35,565 bases of DNA from Chloroflexota bacterium (GCA_016210295.1 JACQUM010000018.1:1-35565), one strand, 5' to 3'. Counted from the first letter of the stretch, positions 14,329 to 21,314 are shown. Made by a program: numbers and translations. The notes: generated by a model from the letters alone, not told the origin.

Positions 14329-15015
14329 TTAGCCCGGCGTTTCCTGTCTGACTATCTGCCCGTCCCGCATGTGGATGATCCTTCTTGTCCTTGTGGCTAG
14401 CTCCGGGTTGTGGGTCACCAAGAGTATGGTCTGACCCTCCTTGTTGAGGTCGGCTAGCATGTCCACAATCTGTAAACCTTGGGAGCTGTCCAGGTTCCCA
14501 GTTGGCTCATCGGCAAGGATCAATTCGGGGCTCTTAGATAGAGCCCGGGCAATAGCCACCCTCTGCCGCTCGCCCCCGGACATCTGGCGGGGCAAGTGCC
14601 TCATCCGGTGGGCGAGTCCGACTCTCTCCAGGGCCTCCTCCGCTGTCCGTGAGGCTCTGGCACCCCCTATGCCAGCCACCCGCAGCTGTTACGCTACATT
14701 GTCTTTGGCGCTCAGGGTGGGCATCAGGTTGAAGGTCTGGAAGACAAAGCCTACCCGCCTCGCCCGAATGTTAGTTAGCCTTGCGTCCCCCGCCTTTGAT
14801 ACGTCCTCTCCCGCGAATATGACCTTACCCTTTGTTGGCCTGTCGAGGCAGCCGAGAAGGTGAAGGAGCGTGGACTTGCCTGAACCGGATGGCCCGACAA
14901 TAGCTGAGAAGTCTCCTTTCTCCACAGATAGATGCACCCCTTGCAAGGCGGGCACCTCCACCTCGTCCAGCTTGTAGATGCGCCACAGGCTCTCGGCCCG
15001 CACGATCTCACTCAT
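14329..15015 (-). pseudogene. MacB/LolD-type ABC ATPase interrupted by an in-frame TAA (14691-14689)
   Basis: ORFs 14689..15030 (Walker A GPSGSGKST) and 14329..14679 ([27 protein letters not shown]) are collinear in one frame. The junction reads ...[19 protein letters not shown]..., where homologues have NVALPL. ATG 15015 overlaps the upstream permease stop. Confidence 0.8.
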
Positions 15016-16167
15016 AGTGGAGGGCCTCAAGGGGAGAGATCCTGGTGGCCTGCCAGGCCGGTAAGAAGGCCGCGATCATGGAGAGGAGCACGGCGGCTGT
15101 CACGATTTGAATCAAGCTGCCTGCTTCCACCACCTCGGCCAACCCGAATCCGACGAGTCTGTCGAGGAGGAACGCGATAGGGATGGAGAGGACGCCGCCG
15201 ATAAAGCCGATGAGCATGGCTTCGAAGATAATAGTGCGGAGCACCAGCCAGCGGGAGCCCCCGATGGCCCGGAGCGTGCCGATCTCCCTGGTGCGCTCGG
15301 AGACGGCCATCACCATCACGATCAGGACCACGACAGCAGCAATCACGTAGACGGTGTTGTTGATCAGGCGGAAGAAAATGCGCTGCCCCTCCATCACAGC
15401 ATCCAGGTTCTCAGCTATTTCCTCCTGGGTCACCACGGAGAGCTTCGGGTGTCTTTCTCGGATACCTTCTGCTACGGGAGCGACATCCGATACTCGCAAG
15501 GCGGTTATCAGCAACGCCGAGACGGAGCCGGGCTGATTGAAGACATCCTGGGCTGTCCCCAGGGGCATTAGCACGACGGGAGCCATCACCCTGTTGTCGA
15601 ACTCCTTCCCCGCTAGGAGGCCCGCCACCTGCAATCGTTCGCCTGCCACCGTTATGCCATCCCCCACGCTGGGCCCCCCGAAAAAGAGGCTTGATAAGGG
15701 ACCCAGAATGACCTCGCGGGCCCTCGGCCCTGTGAAGCTCAGTGTGCCGCCTTTCACTAAGGCCTCTTTGCCAACGTAGGCCCCGATCTTGTCCGGCTCT
15801 ATTCCCACGGCGAGAGCCTGAGGTGGTGCGTTGGGGAAGGGGGGCGGAGCAAGCAGGCGGAAGATGATCGGCGTCGTGCCTTCGTCATCAACCCGGCCCG
15901 CCACTTCCTGGATGATCTGCCGCGCCTCTTCTTCTTTCAGAGTGCTGTTTATCGGGGGGAACTCCTGGCCCCCATCCCGGCACCGGCCTGGGAGCGCACA
16001 TACATCTGACCGGCGTACTTGGCCAGCTCTCGCTGCATGTCCCGTTCCGTGAAGTCCAGGATGGTGGTCAGGAGGATAACGAGCTCCAGGGCCACGCCGA
16101 TGCCTACGATAGTCAGGATGGTGCGTGTCTTGCGCATCCACAAGTTTTTCCAGGCCAAGTCCAACAT
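15008..16167 (-). pseudogene. FtsX/MacB-type ABC permease with a frameshift near 15950-15990
   Basis: The true N-terminus (MLDLAWKNLWMRKTRTILTIVGIGVALELVILL, ATG 16167 with a GAGG RBS) lies in the frame of ORF 15949..16197 and stops at 15949. The rest of the protein, including the FtsX C-terminal domain, is in the frame of ORF 15008..16201. The junction lies in G5/C6 homopolymer runs. Confidence 0.8.
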
Positions 16168-16205
16168 CGTTGACCTCGACGACGGGGATCCTCTCAATCA
16201 ATTCT

Positions 16206-16901
16206 TCACGGGGCCACCGTCGCCATCGCCTCCTGATGCGCCACCGTGCTGGAGGGGCAGATGTCGTTGAGCACGCAGGCCTCGCACCGAGGCCGCGGCG
16301 CCTTGCATACCTGCCGTCCGTGGGTGATCAGGTCCACGTGGAACTGGTACACCTGCTCCGGCGCCAGCAGGGACTCCAGCTCCTCCTGGGATCTCTCCGC
16401 CGAGGCCTTGCCGTCCACAAGGCCGAGTCTCCGGGCCACCCGGTGAACGTGGGTGTCCACCGGCAAAGCGGGTAGCCCGAAGGAGAAGAGGAGGACGCAC
16501 GCGGCCGTCTTGGGCCCCACGCCAGGGAGCGCCCGAAGCCAGGCACGCGCCTCTTCCAACGGCATCGCGTCGAGAAAGGAGAGGTCCAAGGAGCCGCGTT
16601 CCTTCTGGATACGCTGGAGGATGCGGATGATCCGCGGCGCTTTGATTTGGGAGAGTCCACCGCTCTTGATCGCCGTGGCGACCTCGCCCGGGTCTGCCCG
16701 GGCGACATCTTCCCAGGTGGGAAAGCGACGGTGCAGGCTGTCATAGGTGCGGAAGGCGTTGGCGTCGGACGTGTGTTGGGACAGGACGGTGAAGACCATC
16801 TCGCCCAGGGGGTCGCGACGCGGCTCCCATCGTCGCTCCCCGTAATGGTCACGGAGGCGCGCATACACCTCTTGCGCCTGTCGCCTCTTCCTGATGGCCA
16901 A
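16206..16901 (-). CDS. nth: Endonuclease III (HhH-GPD DNA glycosylase with a 4Fe-4S cluster)
   Basis: It has the HhH motif LPGVGPKTAACVLLF and the C-terminal cysteine cluster CKAPRPRCEACVLNDIC. Confidence 0.95.
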   Translation of the reverse strand: MAIRKRRQAQEVYARLRDHYGERRWEPRRDPLGEMVFTVLSQHTSDANAFRTYDSLHRRFPTWEDVARADPGEVATAIKSGGLSQIKAPRIIRILQRIQKERGSLDLSFLDAMPLEEARAWLRALPGVGPKTAACVLLFSFGLPALPVDTHVHRVARRLGLVDGKASAERSQEELESLLAPEQVYQFHVDLITHGRQVCKAPRPRCEACVLNDICPSSTVAHQEAMATVAP

Positions 16902-17057
16902 CGCTGTAACTCACCAGTTCAAAGTGTTCGACGACGCCCATTCTAGCACGAAGGGGGGAAGGGGCTGTCTCGGCGTGAGACCGTGAGGGTTTTCGCTGGT
17001 GCCCCTACCTTGCCAAAGAGATGACAACGACAGATACTTATAGTATGGAGGTGACGC

Positions 17058-17237
17058 ATGGGGGTCTTTCGTTTTTATCTCGAAGGCACGGTCTCCTTGG
17101 ATATCGAGGCGGAGAGCTACGAAGAGGCCCGGGCCCGGTCCCAAGCCCAGCTCGAAGCCTTCGAGGAGGCGGTGAAGGAGCTCTTGAAGAGCAAAGACCC
17201 GGAGGTCTCCGGTGTCGTGAGCGTCTCCGTCCGGTAA
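17058..17237 (+). CDS. Small hypothetical protein (59 aa), paralogue 1
   Basis: ATG 17058 follows GGAGGTGA at 6-nt spacing. The product is MGVFRFYLEGTVSLDIEAESYEEARARSQAQLEAFEEAVKELLKSKDPEVSGVVSVSVR, ending at TAA 17235-17237. It falls below the ORF-track length cutoff and is paralogous to the next ORF. Confidence 0.6.
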   Translation: MGVFRFYLEGTVSLDIEAESYEEARARSQAQLEAFEEAVKELLKSKDPEVSGVVSVSVR

Positions 17238-17277
17238 GAGAGCAATTGGAAGCCTGACCACGGGAAGGAGAGGGAAG

Positions 17278-17502
17278 TTGAAGAAGACCTATCGCGTTAT
17301 CCGAGATGCGACGGCTGTCTTGGAGGTCGAGGCGCCCAGCTACGAAGAGGCGCTGGCCCGCTCCGGGGCCAAGTCGGAGGCCCTCCAGGAGGCGCTCAAG
17401 GAGCTCCTCCTTCTTCGGGGTTCCAAGTTTCCCAACATCGTGAGCGCGACGGTCAGCACCAACAACGTCATCTCCGGCCCCATCGGGCACCCGTACCACT
17501 AA
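17278..17502 (+). CDS. Small hypothetical protein (74 aa), paralogue 2
   Basis: TTG start after GGAAGGAGAGGG. It aligns with paralogue 1 (..LEVEAPSYEEALARS...EALQEALKELL...VSATVS) and shares the DNA string AGCTACGAAGAGGC. Confidence 0.6.
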   Translation: MKKTYRVIRDATAVLEVEAPSYEEALARSGAKSEALQEALKELLLLRGSKFPNIVSATVSTNNVISGPIGHPYH

Positions 17503-17674
17503 ACGACGGCTTCCCGTTCCTGCGTCTCCGTCGAGAGTCTGCGAGCGCTGAGGTCGGCGACTCTTGAGCCTCGCCACGGCTTTCTGTGGCTCTTTGCGCG
17601 CCTCGATTCCATCCGCATGGTAGAATGGCCTCTTAGGCGAACTTTTCCCTAAGTGACCTCACTTTGGAGCCCAC

Positions 17675-19033
17675 GTGCGCGACCGCATCGAGGAGGCCCT
17701 TCGCGGCCACAACGCCGACTACATCGAGTTGCGGATAGAGGAGATCGAGGGGACTCATCTCTCCTTCCGGAACACCGAGCTGGAAGACATCGGCCGCAGC
17801 CGGAGCCTCGGCGGGTGTGCCCGAGCCCTCGTCAAAGGGGGCTGGGGCTTCGTCTCCTTTACCTCCCTGGAGGGCCTGAGGGAGAAGGTGGCCCTGGCGG
17901 TGAGCCAGGCCCGCATGGTGGGCGGCAAGAGACTCAAGCTGGCCGCCGGGCCTCTTATCGATGAAGAGGTCCCCCCCACGCTGCCGAAAGACCCGCGAAC
18001 GGTCCCTCTGGCGGAGAAGGTGGCGCTGCTGCGCGAGTATACCGATGCCCTCTGGAGTGTCCCGCACATCCAGAGCACCGGTCTCGCCTACGGCGATCGC
18101 TACCGGCGTGTCATCTTCGCCAACGGGGAGGGCAGCTACATCGTCCAGGCGCGTGTGGACGTGAACTTTCGCCCATGGGCTGCCGCCCGAGACGGCGGGG
18201 ACGTGCAGCAATACGGGGTCAGCCTTGGCAGCCTGGGCGACTACGGGCTGGTGGAGGGAAAGCACAAGGAGGTCCGTGGTGTCGCCGAGAAGGCCGTGGA
18301 GTTGCTCTCGGCTCCACGGCTTCATGGCGGCGAATACGTGGTCATCTGCGACCCCATCCTGGCGGGCGTCTTCGCCCACGAGGCCTTCGGCCACCTCTCG
18401 GAGTCAGACTTCGTCTATGAGAACGAGCGGGTCCAGGAGCTGATGGTCCTGGGCCGGCGCTTCGGCGGACCGCATTTGAACATCGTCGACGGGGCCGCCA
18501 TCCCGGGCCTGCGTGGCTCCTACAAGTACGACGACGAGGGGATGCCCGCCACCCGCACGGACCTCATCCGCGAGGGCGTGTTGGTGGGACGCCTCCACTC
18601 TCGTGAGACGGCGGCCAAGATGCAGGAGCCCCCCACTGGGAACGCCAGGGCGATCGACTTCCATTTTCATCCTATCGTTCGGATGACCAACACGTTCATC
18701 GAGCCCGGGACGGCTTCTGTGGAAGACATCTTCGCCGAGGTGAAGGACGGGGTCTACGCCAAGAACTGGTACGGCGGGATGACGAGCATGGAGATGTTCA
18801 CCTTTTCCGCGGGAGAGGCCTATCGGATCCGAAACGGCCGTGTGGCGGAGCTCCTTCGGCCCGTCGTCCTCTCGGGGAACGTCTTCACGACTCTGGAGAA
18901 CGTGGACGCCGTCGCCAACGACCTGGACTTCAACCAGGGCGGAGGCTGCGGGAAAGGCGGCCAGGCGCCTCTCCCTGTCTCCAACGGCAGCCCGCACATT
19001 CGCATCCGCAGCTGCCTCGTGGGAGGCGCGTGA
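17675..19033 (+). CDS. tldD: TldD metalloprotease (peptidase U62)
   Basis: It has the HEAFGHLSESD motif and a C-terminal GGCGKGGQ...PHIRI. GTG start after a GGAG RBS. Confidence 0.9.
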   Translation: MRDRIEEALRGHNADYIELRIEEIEGTHLSFRNTELEDIGRSRSLGGCARALVKGGWGFVSFTSLEGLREKVALAVSQARMVGGKRLKLAAGPLIDEEVPPTLPKDPRTVPLAEKVALLREYTDALWSVPHIQSTGLAYGDRYRRVIFANGEGSYIVQARVDVNFRPWAAARDGGDVQQYGVSLGSLGDYGLVEGKHKEVRGVAEKAVELLSAPRLHGGEYVVICDPILAGVFAHEAFGHLSESDFVYENERVQELMVLGRRFGGPHLNIVDGAAIPGLRGSYKYDDEGMPATRTDLIREGVLVGRLHSRETAAKMQEPPTGNARAIDFHFHPIVRMTNTFIEPGTASVEDIFAEVKDGVYAKNWYGGMTSMEMFTFSAGEAYRIRNGRVAELLRPVVLSGNVFTTLENVDAVANDLDFNQGGGCGKGGQAPLPVSNGSPHIRIRSCLVGGA

Positions 19034-20337
19034 TGGACCGCGTCCTGGCCTTTGCGGCGAAGGCTACAAGGGAGGCGGAGGTTCAAGCGGTGGAGAGCCG
19101 CTTCACCACGGTCGGCTTCGAGACCGACCGTCTCAAAGAGGTGCAGACCCGCGAAGGGTGGACCATGGGCGTCCGGCTCCTGGTGGACGGGCGCGTGGGC
19201 CTGTCCTCCACCAACGATCCCGCTGAGGAGGAGGGAGTCGTTCGCCGCGCCCTGGAGCTGGCGCCCTTCGGGCCGGAGGTAAACTTCGAGCTCCCCTCTC
19301 CCCAGGAGTACCCCGAGGTGCCGACCTATGATCCGGCCATCGAGGGGGTGACTGCCAAGAAGATGGTGGAGTTCTTCCGCTCTCTTCTCGCCGACTTGAA
19401 AGCGGCGTACCGAGACGTTCTCTTCGAGGGGGGCGTCACCGCCGGGACCACCTTGCTCTCCTTGAAGAATAGTCGCGGCCTGGACCTGAGCTACCGAAAG
19501 AGCACCTACGCCTTCTGGGTGAGCGGCACGCGAGTCCAGGGAATGGACATGCTTTTTGTTGGAGACCGACAGCGCTCGACCGGCCCTGTGTGGGACTACA
19601 CGCGGGTGAAGGCCTCCGTTCTGCGCCAGCTGGACCTGGCGAAGAACCTTGTTCCCGCCCCAGCGGGACGCGTCCCTGTGCTCTTCACTTCCCGCGGCTT
19701 CGCAGGCACTCTCCTTGGCCCACTTCTCGCTGCCTTGAACGGCCGCACCGTCGTCCAGGGGGCCTCCCCTCTGGCGGGCCGCCTCGACGAGCAGGCCTTC
19801 GACGCCAGCTTGACTCTTCTGGACGATCCGACAATCCCCTTGAAGCCGCCTGCACGTCCCTGGGACGAAGAAGGGACACCCAGCCGGCCGCTACCTCTGG
19901 TCGAGAAGGGAGTGGTCCGCAACTTCCTGTACGATCTCCACACGGCGGCCCGAGCCGGAGCGAGGAGCACGGGCAGCGCCTCGGGCGGGATTGGCAGCAT
20001 GCCGGGGCCTTCTGCCTCCTACCTCCAAGTCCTGCCCGGCCAGGTGCCTTTCGACACGATGGTAGCGAACGTGCAAGACGGGCTCCTTGTGGAGGAGCTG
20101 ATTGGAGCAGGGCAGGGCAACACTTTGGGCGGCGAGATCGCGGGGAACGTGCTCCTCGGTTATCGGATCCAGAACGGGAGCGTCACAGGCCGCGTCAAGG
20201 ACACGGTGATTCACTGCAATCTCTACCATGTCCTGCGGGACATCGGCGCCATTGGTCAAGAGGCAGAGGAAGTAGGTGGCTTCCTTTCTGTTCCGCCAAT
20301 ACTGTGCCTGGACGTCTCCGTGGCACGGAAGGAGTAA
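19030..20337 (+). CDS. pmbA: PmbA/TldE (peptidase U62 partner subunit)
   Basis: The U62 family pattern is present but lacks the HExxxH motif. Its start overlaps the tldD stop (GTGATG). Confidence 0.9.
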   Translation: MMDRVLAFAAKATREAEVQAVESRFTTVGFETDRLKEVQTREGWTMGVRLLVDGRVGLSSTNDPAEEEGVVRRALELAPFGPEVNFELPSPQEYPEVPTYDPAIEGVTAKKMVEFFRSLLADLKAAYRDVLFEGGVTAGTTLLSLKNSRGLDLSYRKSTYAFWVSGTRVQGMDMLFVGDRQRSTGPVWDYTRVKASVLRQLDLAKNLVPAPAGRVPVLFTSRGFAGTLLGPLLAALNGRTVVQGASPLAGRLDEQAFDASLTLLDDPTIPLKPPARPWDEEGTPSRPLPLVEKGVVRNFLYDLHTAARAGARSTGSASGGIGSMPGPSASYLQVLPGQVPFDTMVANVQDGLLVEELIGAGQGNTLGGEIAGNVLLGYRIQNGSVTGRVKDTVIHCNLYHVLRDIGAIGQEAEEVGGFLSVPPILCLDVSVARKE

Positions 20338-21314
20338 TGGCCTTGCGGGATGCCTCCAAGAGCCTGGCGGAGGTTCTGGCGGAGCTGCAAGACCCCGTGA
20401 ACCCTTTGCGCTCGGCGACCCTGCCCCACCTCTCCGGCCTCGACACTGCGGAGGCGAAGAGAGCACAGGTTGCTCTTGCTTCGGCGCCCTTCGAACGGCG
20501 ACGGGCTGTTCTGCGACGGATGGTCGAGATGGCGGAGGACAACGTCGATCTCGACTTCACGCCGATCTTTCGCCTCTCTCTCGAGGACGAAGATGAGGAG
20601 GTGCGGGAGTCCGCCCTCTGGGGGCTTTGGGAGTGCGACGAGCGGTCCCTCATCGGCCCGCTCATCCGGCTCCTGAGTCAGGACCCCGAGGTCCGTGTCC
20701 GGGCAGCGGCGGCCCAAAGCCTGGGCCGCTTCGCGATGCTCGCCCAGAGAGGGAAACTGCACCCCTACGATATCCGCAGGACGAACGAGGCGCTCCTGAA
20801 TGCCCTTCAAGGAGAAGAAGAGTCCGTGGAGGTGCGACGGCGCGCCCTCGAGGCAACGGCCCCCTTCGATTCCGAGGAGGTCCGCGAGCTTATCACCGAG
20901 GCGTACGAGAGCGAGAACGAGTCGATGCGCGCGTCGGCCCTCCACGCCATGGGGCGCACGGGAAACATCTTCTGGCTTCCTCTCGTTCTGGAGGAGATGG
21001 CGAGTCCTCTTGCCGAGATTCGCTACGAGGCGGCGGGTGCGGCGGGGGAGATCGGAGTCGAGGACGCCGTTCCGCATCTCGTCCGGTTGCTCCAGGACGA
21101 GGATCCCGAGGTGCAAGAGGCCGCCATCTATGCCCTGGGGGTCATAGGTGGCTCGACGGCTCAGCGCAGTCTTCGCCGGTGCTTGGAGAGTCAGGACCCT
21201 CGCATCCGCGAAGCGGCGAGCGCGGCTCTCGGAGAGCTGGAGAGTTGGGAGCAGTTCCCTTCCAGCATGGCTCGCTCCGGCGTAGAGTTGACCGAAGAGG
21301 ACACGGACCTCTAG
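20337..21314 (+). CDS. HEAT-repeat (PBS-lyase-type) protein
   Basis: ATG 20337 overlaps the pmbA TAA as TAATG. It has repeated D..VR..A..ALG units (EDEEVRESALWGL, DPEVRVRAAAAQSLG, DPEVQEAAIYALG, DPRIREAASAALG). The ORF-track extension to 19590 lies inside pmbA. Confidence 0.8.
   Translation: MALRDASKSLAEVLAELQDPVNPLRSATLPHLSGLDTAEAKRAQVALASAPFERRRAVLRRMVEMAEDNVDLDFTPIFRLSLEDEDEEVRESALWGLWECDERSLIGPLIRLLSQDPEVRVRAAAAQSLGRFAMLAQRGKLHPYDIRRTNEALLNALQGEEESVEVRRRALEATAPFDSEEVRELITEAYESENESMRASALHAMGRTGNIFWLPLVLEEMASPLAEIRYEAAGAAGEIGVEDAVPHLVRLLQDEDPEVQEAAIYALGVIGGSTAQRSLRRCLESQDPRIREAASAALGELESWEQFPSSMARSGVELTEEDTDL

What the first reader, a model, noticed from the sequence alone, without database searches (positions are those of the whole stretch)
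17058..17502. Tandem pair of paralogous mini-proteins (59 and 74 aa) of unrecognised family, one invisible to the ORF track
Two consecutive small ORFs each have a strong RBS. They share a clear pattern: beta-strand-like x(L)(D/E)(I/V)EA.SYEEA.ARS......EA...(A)(V/L)KELL, then ..VS..VS. They also share identical DNA strings (AGCTACGAAGAGGC, AAGGAGCTC).

Conservation at the protein level, with divergent third positions, argues that they are real coding genes that arose by duplication.

The long ORF the track offers in this region (17021..17257) is in another frame and has an implausible, Arg/Gly-rich composition.

The pair sits between nth and tldD, in a 770-bp region that otherwise has no annotation. 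The SYEEA helix is faintly reminiscent of HicB/UPF0150-type small alpha/beta folds, but I cannot assign a family.
Basis: seen in the sequence. Interest (0 to 1): 0.6.

Follow-up and report, generated by a model that had tools for sequence, protein, structure and literature searches.

The report
Young orphan mini-protein gene pair
Two adjacent small genes (59 and 74 codons) in an uncultured Dehalococcoidia bacterium are real, selection-constrained duplicates of a protein family found nowhere else, so they are a sound annotation and a neat case of a young lineage-specific gene, but their function is unknown.

Summary
ORF A (17058..17237, 59 aa) and ORF B (17278..17502, 74 aa) both have Shine-Dalgarno sites. 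They are 45% identical over 56 residues (E 6e-14).

Both are coding. GC3 is 0.80/0.85, like the neighbouring genes. Against the only close relative (a 1.7-kb contig, about 93% identical), changes fall mainly at third codon positions. dN/dS is 0.19 for A and 0.10 for B, against 0.09 for tldD. The rival +frame ORF and the long antisense ORF fail these tests.

The family is an orphan. I found no relative among 1.84 billion representative proteins, 5.8 billion clustered proteins, 400 genomes of the class, metagenome, viral, phage and plasmid collections, Pfam, NCBIfam, PHROGs, PADLOC or PDB.

In about 30 relatives nth and tldD lie 60-190 bp apart. The pair is therefore a lineage-specific insertion between their promoters, and it has its own promoter-like site.

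The HicB hint failed (hhalign probability 1.6%), as did a tautomerase check. There are no RiPP enzymes nearby.

AlphaFold gives only a confident central helix, with no fold match.

My best reading is a young, tandemly duplicated, soluble mini-protein pair that probably self-associates. The function is unresolved. Interest is low to moderate.

The parts
17010..17044 (+). Promoter-like site of the A-B unit: TTGCCA (17010-17015), 17-nt spacer, GATACT (17033-17038). An overlapping TATAGT lies at 17039-17044.
   Evidence: Consensus scan: 1 site found against 0.1 expected in shuffles. Read directly. Not covered by the relative contig, so its conservation was not tested.
17047..17054 (+). Shine-Dalgarno site of ORF A (GGAGGTGA)
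   Evidence: Read directly. There are 6 nt between GGAGG and the ATG at 17058.
17058..17237 (+). ORF A: 59 aa, 6.6 kDa, pI 4.55, no hydrophobic segment.
   Evidence: ORF. GC1/2/3 0.65/0.37/0.80; differences from L011 by codon position 0/3/7; dN/dS 0.19; pI. AF2 mean pLDDT 77, helix 21-46.
17238..17277 (+). A-B spacer (40 nt) carrying the Shine-Dalgarno site of ORF B (AAGGAGA, 17265-17271).
   Evidence: The spacer differs from L011 at 35% of positions, against 6-7% in the two coding regions. AAGGAGA is unchanged.
17278..17502 (+). ORF B: 74 aa, 8.0 kDa, pI 8.1, TTG start. It has a C-terminal extension of about 15 residues (STNNVISGPIGHPYH) that A lacks.
   Evidence: ORF. GC3 0.85; differences from L011 by codon position 3/1/12; start TTG changes to GTG; dN/dS 0.10. 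Residues 33-74 are identical in the relative despite 7 synonymous changes. AF2 mean pLDDT 71, helix 22-45.
17096..17183 (+). Duplicated core, copy 1 (the second strand and the helix of A).
   Evidence: 88 nt, 77% identical to 17319-17406; core dS 0.48, dN 0.28.
17319..17406 (+). Duplicated core, copy 2 (in B).
17573..17598 (+). Terminator-like hairpin after B: GCCACGG-CTTT-CTGTGGC, followed by TCTTTGCG.
   Evidence: present in both the MFE and centroid folds. In L011 one pair changes A-U to G-C and one pair is broken. The T tract is weak, and the consensus scan did not call it. Tentative.
16938..16948 (-). Left bracket of the insert: the extended -10 of nth (TGCTAGAATGG on the minus strand).
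   Evidence: Inverted repeat I4. Read directly. Its function as a promoter is inferred from the consensus only.
17618..17628 (+). Right bracket of the insert: the extended -10 of tldD (TGGTAGAATGG).
   Evidence: (I4). Partly conserved in L011, which reads TGGTAAGATAG. tldD therefore appears to have its own promoter downstream of B.

Best explanation
A and B are two genuine protein-coding genes of a young, taxonomically restricted ('orphan') family.

A single ancestral mini-gene entered, or arose in, the short divergent promoter region between nth and tldD in one Dehalococcoidia lineage. It then duplicated in tandem (start-to-start spacing 220 nt). The copies diverged quickly (paralogue dN/dS about 0.55). 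Both are now kept by purifying selection about as strong as that on the housekeeping neighbour tldD.

They form their own small transcription unit: a promoter-like site, two Shine-Dalgarno-led cistrons and a weak terminator-like hairpin. tldD keeps its own promoter downstream.

The products are soluble cytoplasmic mini-proteins of 6.6 kDa (acidic) and 8.0 kDa (near-neutral). Each is built around a 25-residue amphipathic helix flanked by extended segments in which hydrophobic and polar residues alternate.

Inferred, not shown: the flanking segments need a partner to form a sheet. The two proteins therefore most likely assemble with each other or with themselves into a small oligomer and act as an accessory binding or regulatory factor. 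The strictly conserved C-terminal tail of B would be its specific interaction surface.

Shown: gene reality, duplication, selection, lineage restriction and insertion site. Inferred: transcription-unit boundaries, translation, oligomerisation and any cellular role. I put gene reality above 0.9, and the oligomeric binding-protein mechanism at about 0.3.
For: Coding:
- GC3 is 0.80/0.85, against 0.84-0.85 in nth and tldD.
- Against contig L011 from an independent assembly, differences by codon position are 0/3/7 for A and 3/1/12 for B.
- NG86 dN/dS is 0.19 for A and 0.10 for B, against 0.09 for tldD, at similar dS of 0.18-0.22.
- The deficit of non-synonymous changes in A and B together has binomial P=1.8e-5.
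- The A-B spacer is 35% diverged, but the Shine-Dalgarno site is kept and B's start changes TTG to GTG.
- The antisense ORF has dN/dS 1.5 and GC3 0.51.

Duplication:
- BLASTP E 6e-14 and an 88-nt repeat of 77% identity.
- Identical residues share a codon in 20 of 25 cases, against 12.1 expected.
- Paralogue dS is 0.84 overall and 0.48 in the core, only about 2.5-4 times the orthologue dS.
- Orthologues (93-94% identical) are much closer than paralogues, so the duplication predates the split of the two strains.

Lineage restriction:
- The searches found only the two proteins themselves or their close orthologue. Two further repeat-protein hits are artefacts.
- Nothing in 40 relatives, in 400 genomes of the class read in six frames, or in 175 tldD loci.
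- Nothing in metagenome, genome or viral contig scans, nor in phages and plasmids.

Insertion:
- The relatives' gene order is argC-nth, then divergently tldD-pmbA-HEAT. The nth-tldD gap is 59-191 bp in about 30 loci.

Protein properties.
Against: - Only two genomes carry the genes, so the substitution counts are small: 10 in A and 14-16 in B. Copy A in the relative lacks its first 8 codons because the contig ends there.
- There is no expression data.
- AlphaFold, run with a 4-sequence alignment, gave only moderate confidence (mean pLDDT 71-77, pTM about 0.5) and no DSSP strands. The strand assignment and the oligomer idea rest on residue periodicity read by eye; my crude hydrophobic-moment script was uninformative.
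- The excess of shared codons in the core could reflect past gene conversion or an RNA-level constraint rather than youth.
- The origin of the ancestral gene (transfer from an unsampled donor, or de novo birth) is undetermined.
Confidence: 0.7

Rival explanations
1. A and B are ribosomally made precursor peptides (RiPP or bacteriocin-like). A conserved N-terminal leader (strand plus helix) would be removed by the adjacent TldD/TldE protease from Ser/Thr/Val-rich C-terminal cores. The nearby MacB-type ABC transporter might export the products.
For: - Tandem paralogous small genes lie directly upstream of tldD-pmbA.
- TldD/E removes the leader of microcin B17 (PMC5810440, found).
- The N-terminal two-thirds is the conserved part, and the C-termini differ in sequence and length.
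- B's tail is strictly conserved between the two strains.
- A lineage-specific ABC transporter sits on the other side of nth.
Against: - The 25 kb annotated around the pair holds no YcaO, radical-SAM, lanthipeptide, RRE or other maturation gene.
- tldD-pmbA-HEAT is conserved next to nth in relatives that lack the peptides, so the adjacency comes from an insertion beside a housekeeping operon.
- tldD has its own promoter-like site, and a hairpin separates it from B.
- There is no Cys and no double-glycine or other known leader-cleavage motif.
- The C-terminal 'VSxxVS' segment is itself conserved between the paralogues, like a structural strand.
- The ABC transporter genes are disrupted.
Confidence: 0.07
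2. They are very divergent HicB/UPF0150-like antitoxin-type domains, or another toxin-antitoxin or defence accessory acquired from a mobile element.
For: - The 'S-Y-E-E-A' start of the helix, preceded by strands, loosely recalls the 'G-D-T-x-E-E-A' helix start of the HicB N-domain (one search aligns these 12 residues).
- HicB genes are abundant in this group of genomes.
- In other lineages the nth-tldD gap holds other inserted genes, including a Fic-motif gene.
Against: - PF15919 hits two other loci in this genome but not A or B.
- hhalign probability is 1.6%.
- The HicB hallmark P-x-x-P-G-C is absent.
- There is no HicA or other toxin ORF with coding composition in the 773-bp gap.
- PADLOC and PHROGs give no significant hit. 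Phage, plasmid and viral-contig collections give none.
- Codon usage is native-like.
Confidence: 0.04
3. They are not genes: either a non-coding tandem DNA repeat or chance ORFs in GC-rich DNA, with the real gene (if any) being the antisense 179-aa ORF 17038..17577 or the +frame ORF 17021..17257.
For: - Long spurious ORFs are common at 65% GC.
- The antisense ORF is open in both strains.
- Paralogue differences are spread evenly over codon positions.
Against: - Orthologue substitutions sit at third positions of A and of B, although the two are in different frames.
- dN/dS is 0.1-0.2, against 1.5 for the antisense ORF.
- GC3 is 0.80-0.85 for A and B, against 0.51 (antisense) and 0.39 (+frame rival).
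- The spacer between the ORFs evolves about 5 times faster than the ORFs.
- There is no Rfam match.
Confidence: 0.03

Closest known systems
Taxonomically restricted (orphan) small-protein genes, and variable cargo at a fixed chromosomal site (compare the 'replacement flexible genomic islands' of PMC4033161)
   Same: - The genes have no homologues outside one narrow lineage, are short, and are tandemly duplicated.
- They sit at a site (the nth-tldD gap) that is empty in most relatives. In other Dehalococcoidia it holds unrelated genes: a histidine-phosphatase-type gene in L040, L061, L062 and L090, and a Fic-motif gene in L100 and L105.
   Different: - Replacement islands as described in that paper are large, occur within a species and mostly encode cell-surface functions.
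- Here the cargo is 0.67 kb, the comparison spans families of a class, and no recombination signature was tested.
- Unlike many orphans, both copies are under purifying selection as strong as that on a housekeeping neighbour.
HicB / UPF0150 N-terminal domain (Pfam PF15919)
   Same: It is a small cytoplasmic alpha/beta domain whose N-terminal strands lead into a long helix starting with a Ser/Thr-x-E-E-A cap.
   Different: - There is no profile match, and hhalign probability is 1.6% over 12 columns.
- It lacks the conserved PxxPGC turn.
- There is no HicA partner and no C-terminal DNA-binding domain.
4-oxalocrotonate tautomerase-type beta-alpha-beta subunits, including the heterohexamers whose alpha and beta subunits are encoded by tandem paralogous genes (recalled from the literature, not checked here)
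   Same: - The chains are 60-75 residues with a strand, a long helix and a strand, and make a sheet only on oligomerisation.
- They are encoded by two adjacent paralogous genes.
   Different: - The catalytic N-terminal proline is absent (A starts MGV, B starts MKK).
- PF01361 gives no match in this genome, and hhalign probability is 0.2%.
- There is an extra N-terminal strand-like segment.
De novo designed 'ideal' alpha/beta proteins (PDB 4hhu OR280, 4nez, 4ney, 5cw9, 2kl8)
   Same: These are the only PDB sequence hits (E 0.001-0.6). They align a helix end, a loop and a strand (LEALEKALKEMIRQ-ARKFAGTV) with A/B residues 31-55. This fits a simple, idealised helix-loop-strand design.
   Different: The hits are artificial proteins. 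The similarity is compositional over about 25 residues and says nothing about descent or function. Foldseek with the AF2 models found no match.
Microcin B17-type precursor peptides processed by TldD/TldE (PMC5810440)
   Same: They are small gene products encoded next to, or dependent on, the TldD/E protease.
   Different: - There is no synthetase or other modification genes.
- The C-terminal part is not Gly/Ser/Cys-rich.
- The adjacency to tldD arose by insertion next to a conserved housekeeping operon.

Membership tests
HicB / UPF0150 antitoxin N-domain (PF15919) | Significant match to the family profile | tested here: not met
   Pfam scan of A and B at E<=1 lists no HicB family. A whole-genome PF15919 search finds C105 and C132 in this genome, but not 17058-17502.
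HicB / UPF0150 antitoxin N-domain (PF15919) | Profile-profile similarity over the domain, including the PxxPGC turn before the helix | tested here: not met
   hhalign of A3 against an alignment of 11 HicB domains from relatives gives probability 1.6% over 12 columns. The PGC turn is absent from A and B.
HicB / UPF0150 antitoxin N-domain (PF15919) | Adjacent HicA toxin gene | tested here: not met
   No other ORF with coding composition lies between nth and tldD.
Tautomerase superfamily (PF01361) | Catalytic N-terminal proline (Pro-1 after Met removal) | tested here: not met
   A begins MGVF and B begins MKKT. All 7 relatives' tautomerases begin (M/V)P.
Tautomerase superfamily (PF01361) | Profile match | tested here: not met
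   No PF01361 match in G000 at E<=0.001. hhalign probability 0.2%.
RiPP precursor peptide | Modification enzyme or RRE-domain protein encoded in the same cluster | tested here: not met
   A Pfam scan of 20 neighbouring proteins across 10.7-35.6 kb of the window shows none.
RiPP precursor peptide | Conserved leader plus variable core, and cleavage or modification of the product | tested here: inconclusive
   The N-terminal two-thirds is more conserved than the C-terminus. However, the C-terminal VSxxVS segment is also shared, and no known cleavage motif is present. Product chemistry cannot be tested here.
Genuine protein-coding gene (as opposed to a chance ORF) | Purifying selection in the reading frame, and codon-position composition like the host's genes | tested here: met
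   dN/dS is 0.19 and 0.10, with combined P=1.8e-5. GC3 is 0.80/0.85. The alternative frames fail.
Genuine protein-coding gene (as opposed to a chance ORF) | Evidence of transcription and translation | not testable with these tools
The only evidence is the Shine-Dalgarno sites, a promoter-like site and the conserved start and Shine-Dalgarno site of B.
Taxonomically restricted (orphan) gene family | No detectable homologue outside a narrow lineage despite sensitive searches | tested here: met
   The only carriers are the window genome and one contig of about 93% nucleotide identity.

The most novel reading that the evidence does not exclude
The pair is a protein family caught shortly after its birth: either de novo origin, or capture from an unsampled mobile source followed by rapid remodelling. 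It would already be fixed under purifying selection. Its two diverged copies would form a hetero-oligomer with a minimal strand-helix-strand architecture that has no counterpart among solved structures.
Probability: 0.15. Interest if true: 0.55.

Novelty: new member of a known kind. Interest (0 to 1): 0.25.

Why it matters
- **Annotation:** both genes are real and the overlapping longer ORFs are not. A falls below common length cut-offs and could be missed.
- **Evolution:** this is a clean small example of a lineage-restricted gene that was inserted between two divergent housekeeping promoters and duplicated. The copies diverged fast (paralogue dN/dS about 0.55) and then came under selection as tight as on tldD (0.1-0.2). 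It could serve as a tractable model for how new mini-proteins become fixed.
- **Structure:** at 59 and 74 residues, the proteins are easy targets for NMR or crystallography, so the question of a possible new minimal fold or oligomer is cheap to settle.
- **Caveat:** orphan tandem paralogues are common in uncultured lineages. This scan alone has hundreds of such notes. Without a function this finding is not surprising to a specialist.

Tried and rejected
1. **Homology searches, all negative.**
   - Pfam, PHROGs, NCBIfam and PADLOC. The best hit was PF17950 at E 0.014, 16 bits against a cut-off of 25, so I disregarded it.
   - Word-indexed search of 5.8 billion proteins with B and with A.
   - Full HMM search of 1.84 billion representatives. 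The two extra hits are artefacts of many weak repeat matches summed: a eukaryote-like coiled-coil repeat protein and an Fn3-like repeat protein.
   - Pattern and tblastn scans of metagenome, genome and viral contigs.
   - tblastn of phages and plasmids.
   - Six-frame HMM search of 40 relatives and of 400 genomes of the class. The two per-genome hits at E about 0.008 lie inside large ORFs and are expected by chance.
   - hmmsearch --max over 15,422 frames from 175 tldD loci.
2. **Looking for syntenic divergent copies.** Gaps of similar size (738-822 bp) in L040, L061, L062 and L090 looked promising. They hold an unrelated minus-strand histidine-phosphatase-type gene (RHG motif). L100 and L105 hold a Fic-motif gene.
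3. **Closer relatives via TldD.** JGI metagenomes gave at most 71% identity. Exact-sequence look-ups of A and B found no further contigs.
4. **Structure.** The two AF2 runs gave only a central helix. Foldseek against PDB and BFVD found nothing at E<=0.001. The PDB profile search hit only designed proteins.
5. **HicB and tautomerase hypotheses.** Both were rejected by profile-profile tests.
6. **RNA element.** No Rfam hit. Folds of the flanks are not more stable than shuffles.
7. **Other copies or a source sequence in the same genome.** None at protein or DNA level.
8. **Hydrophobic-moment script for secondary structure.** Uninformative.

Full report
**1. What is there**

The 773-bp gap between nth (16206..16901, minus strand; HhH-GPD and EndIII FeS domains) and tldD (17675..19033, plus strand; PmbA/TldD domains) holds two plus-strand ORFs.
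- ORF A is 17058..17237 (59 aa, ATG). GGAGGTGA lies just upstream.
- ORF B is 17278..17502 (74 aa, TTG). AAGGAGA lies 7 nt upstream.
- The two are in different reading frames, so they are not a read-through fusion.
- The proteins align without gaps at 45% identity over 56 residues, E 6e-14.
- The DNA shares an 88-nt core of 77% identity.
- The genome holds no third copy at protein or DNA level.

**2. Are they genes?**

- Codon-position GC is 0.65/0.37/0.80 for A and 0.60/0.43/0.85 for B. This matches nth and tldD (GC3 0.84-0.85). The +frame rival 17021..17257 has GC3 0.39.
- The large protein collection held one near-identical B protein, P0001 (2 substitutions). Its contig L011 is 1,732 bp, from an independent Logan assembly of SRR22388047. 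It carries the last 51 codons of A, all of B and the start of tldD, in the same arrangement and at about 93% nucleotide identity. The arrangement is therefore not an assembly artefact.
- Differences from L011 by codon position are 0/3/7 in A and 3/1/12 in B. One of B's first-position changes is the start codon, TTG to GTG.
- Nei-Gojobori dN/dS is 0.19 for A and 0.10 for B, against 0.09 for the first 380 codons of tldD. dS is similar in all three, 0.18-0.22.
- The shortage of non-synonymous changes in A and B together has binomial P=1.8e-5.
- The 40-nt spacer is 35% diverged, against 6-7% inside the ORFs. The Shine-Dalgarno core AAGGAGA is unchanged.
- The 179-aa antisense ORF is open in both strains, but it has GC3 0.51 and dN/dS 1.5.
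- No Rfam family matches the region.

I conclude that both are protein-coding and under purifying selection.

**3. How old is the duplication?**

- Paralogue differences are spread evenly over codon positions, 24/18/24.
- Synonymous sites are not saturated. Of the 25 identical residues, 20 use the same codon, against 12.1 expected from local codon usage (P=5e-4).
- Paralogue dS is 0.84 overall and 0.48 in the 33-codon core, with dN/dS about 0.55.
- Orthologues are far closer (93-94%) than paralogues (77% in the core). The duplication therefore predates the split of the two strains, but by only a few-fold in dS, unless an old gene conversion event homogenised the core.
- The pattern is fast divergence after duplication, followed by tight constraint now.

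**4. Where did it come from?**

- The titles of the TldD relatives identify the group as uncultured Dehalococcoidia.
- In the 15 loci from the nearest sampled genus, and in about 25 further Dehalococcoidia loci, nth and tldD are divergent neighbours only 59-191 bp apart. The conserved gene order is argC-nth, then divergently tldD-pmbA-HEAT.
- The window differs by two lineage-specific insertions. One is a MacB-type ABC transporter pair between argC and nth. The other is the A/B unit between nth and tldD.
- The A/B insert is bracketed by the two genes' matching extended -10 elements, TGnTAGAATGG, at 16938-16948 (minus strand) and 17618-17628 (plus strand). It therefore sits between the two divergent promoters.
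- The same gap holds unrelated cargo in other lineages: a histidine-phosphatase-type gene, and a Fic-motif gene. It appears to tolerate insertions. This loosely recalls variable cargo at fixed loci (PMC4033161).
- No homologue of A or B was found anywhere. Closer relatives of the lineage could not be found through TldD in JGI metagenomes.
- The source (de novo birth, or transfer from an unsampled donor) stays open. The native-like codon usage argues against very recent transfer from a compositionally different donor.

**5. What are the proteins like?**

- A is acidic (pI 4.55, net charge -5.5). B is near-neutral (pI 8.1). Neither has a hydrophobic segment that could act as a signal peptide or membrane helix.
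- With only a 4-sequence alignment, AlphaFold gives mean pLDDT 77 for A and 71 for B. It predicts a confident helix (A 21-46, B 22-45) and extended flanks with no DSSP strands. B's last six residues are below pLDDT 50.
- Read directly, the flanks alternate hydrophobic and polar residues as amphipathic strands do: A has F4/F6/L8, V12/L14/I16/A18 and V54/V56/V58.
- B's C-terminal half (residues 33-74, including the 15-residue extension that A lacks) is identical in the relative despite seven synonymous changes. The poorly modelled tail is therefore constrained.
- Foldseek found no structural neighbour.
- The only PDB sequence hits are de novo designed idealised alpha/beta proteins, matched over a helix-loop-strand of about 25 residues.

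My inference: these are strand-helix-strand mini-proteins whose sheet is completed by self- or hetero-association. This is a hypothesis (about 0.3), not a result.

**6. Named alternatives tested**

- *HicB/UPF0150.* The family profile detects two other loci in this genome but not this one. hhalign probability is 1.6% over 12 columns. The PGC turn is missing, and there is no HicA partner.
- *Tautomerase-type beta-alpha-beta subunits encoded by tandem paralogues.* There is no Pro-1, no PF01361 hit, and hhalign probability is 0.2%.
- *RiPP precursors for the neighbouring TldD/E* (the role of TldD/E in microcin B17 maturation: PMC5810440). No maturation enzyme lies in the annotated neighbourhood. 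tldD has its own promoter. The adjacency arose by insertion next to a conserved operon. The idea is not excluded, but it is weak (about 0.07).

**7. Verdict**

The pair is a new orphan family of a familiar kind: lineage-restricted, tandemly duplicated small genes. The evidence for selection is unusually clean and the insertion site is well defined, but there is no functional lead. Interest is low to moderate.

Noticed in passing
window 14329-16201 (minus strand): A MacB-type ABC transporter (ATPase plus FtsX/MacB_PCD permease) lies between argC and nth only in this lineage; in relatives argC and nth abut. Both genes look damaged. The ATPase is split into 14689..15030 and 14329..14679. The permease N-terminus (15949..16197) is in a different frame from the body (15008..). 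Sequencing error and real decay were not distinguished.
   Followed up: partly
L040, L061, L062, L090 (about 1240-1860) and L100, L105 (749-1843): The nth-tldD gap holds different inserted genes in other Dehalococcoidia. One is a minus-strand protein of about 200 aa with the RHGxTxWN histidine-phosphatase motif. The other is a 364-aa protein with the Fic motif HPFWDGNGRTAR. The site seems to be an insertion hot spot.
   Followed up: partly
window 16938-16948 (-) and 17618-17628 (+): nth and tldD carry near-identical extended -10 elements (TGCTAGAATGG and TGGTAGAATGG) facing away from each other. This may be the typical promoter form of this organism.
   Followed up: no
window 17675-21314: The tldD-pmbA-HEAT-repeat gene order is not special to this genome. 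A homologue of the HEAT protein lay within the 2-kb flank in 48 of 80 Dehalococcoidia tldD loci, and pmbA in 64 of 80. Pfam confirms HEAT_2, HEAT and HEAT_PBS repeats in 20334..21311.
   Followed up: partly
window 17038-17577 (minus strand): A 179-aa antisense ORF spans both small genes and stays open in the related strain. Yet it has dN/dS 1.5 and GC3 0.51. It shows how misleading ORF length is at 65% GC.
   Followed up: yes
window 16963-16985: A short palindrome, GTCTC-GGCGT-GAGAC, lies in the nth/A upstream region. It could be an operator or chance. It is not covered by the relative contig.
   Followed up: no
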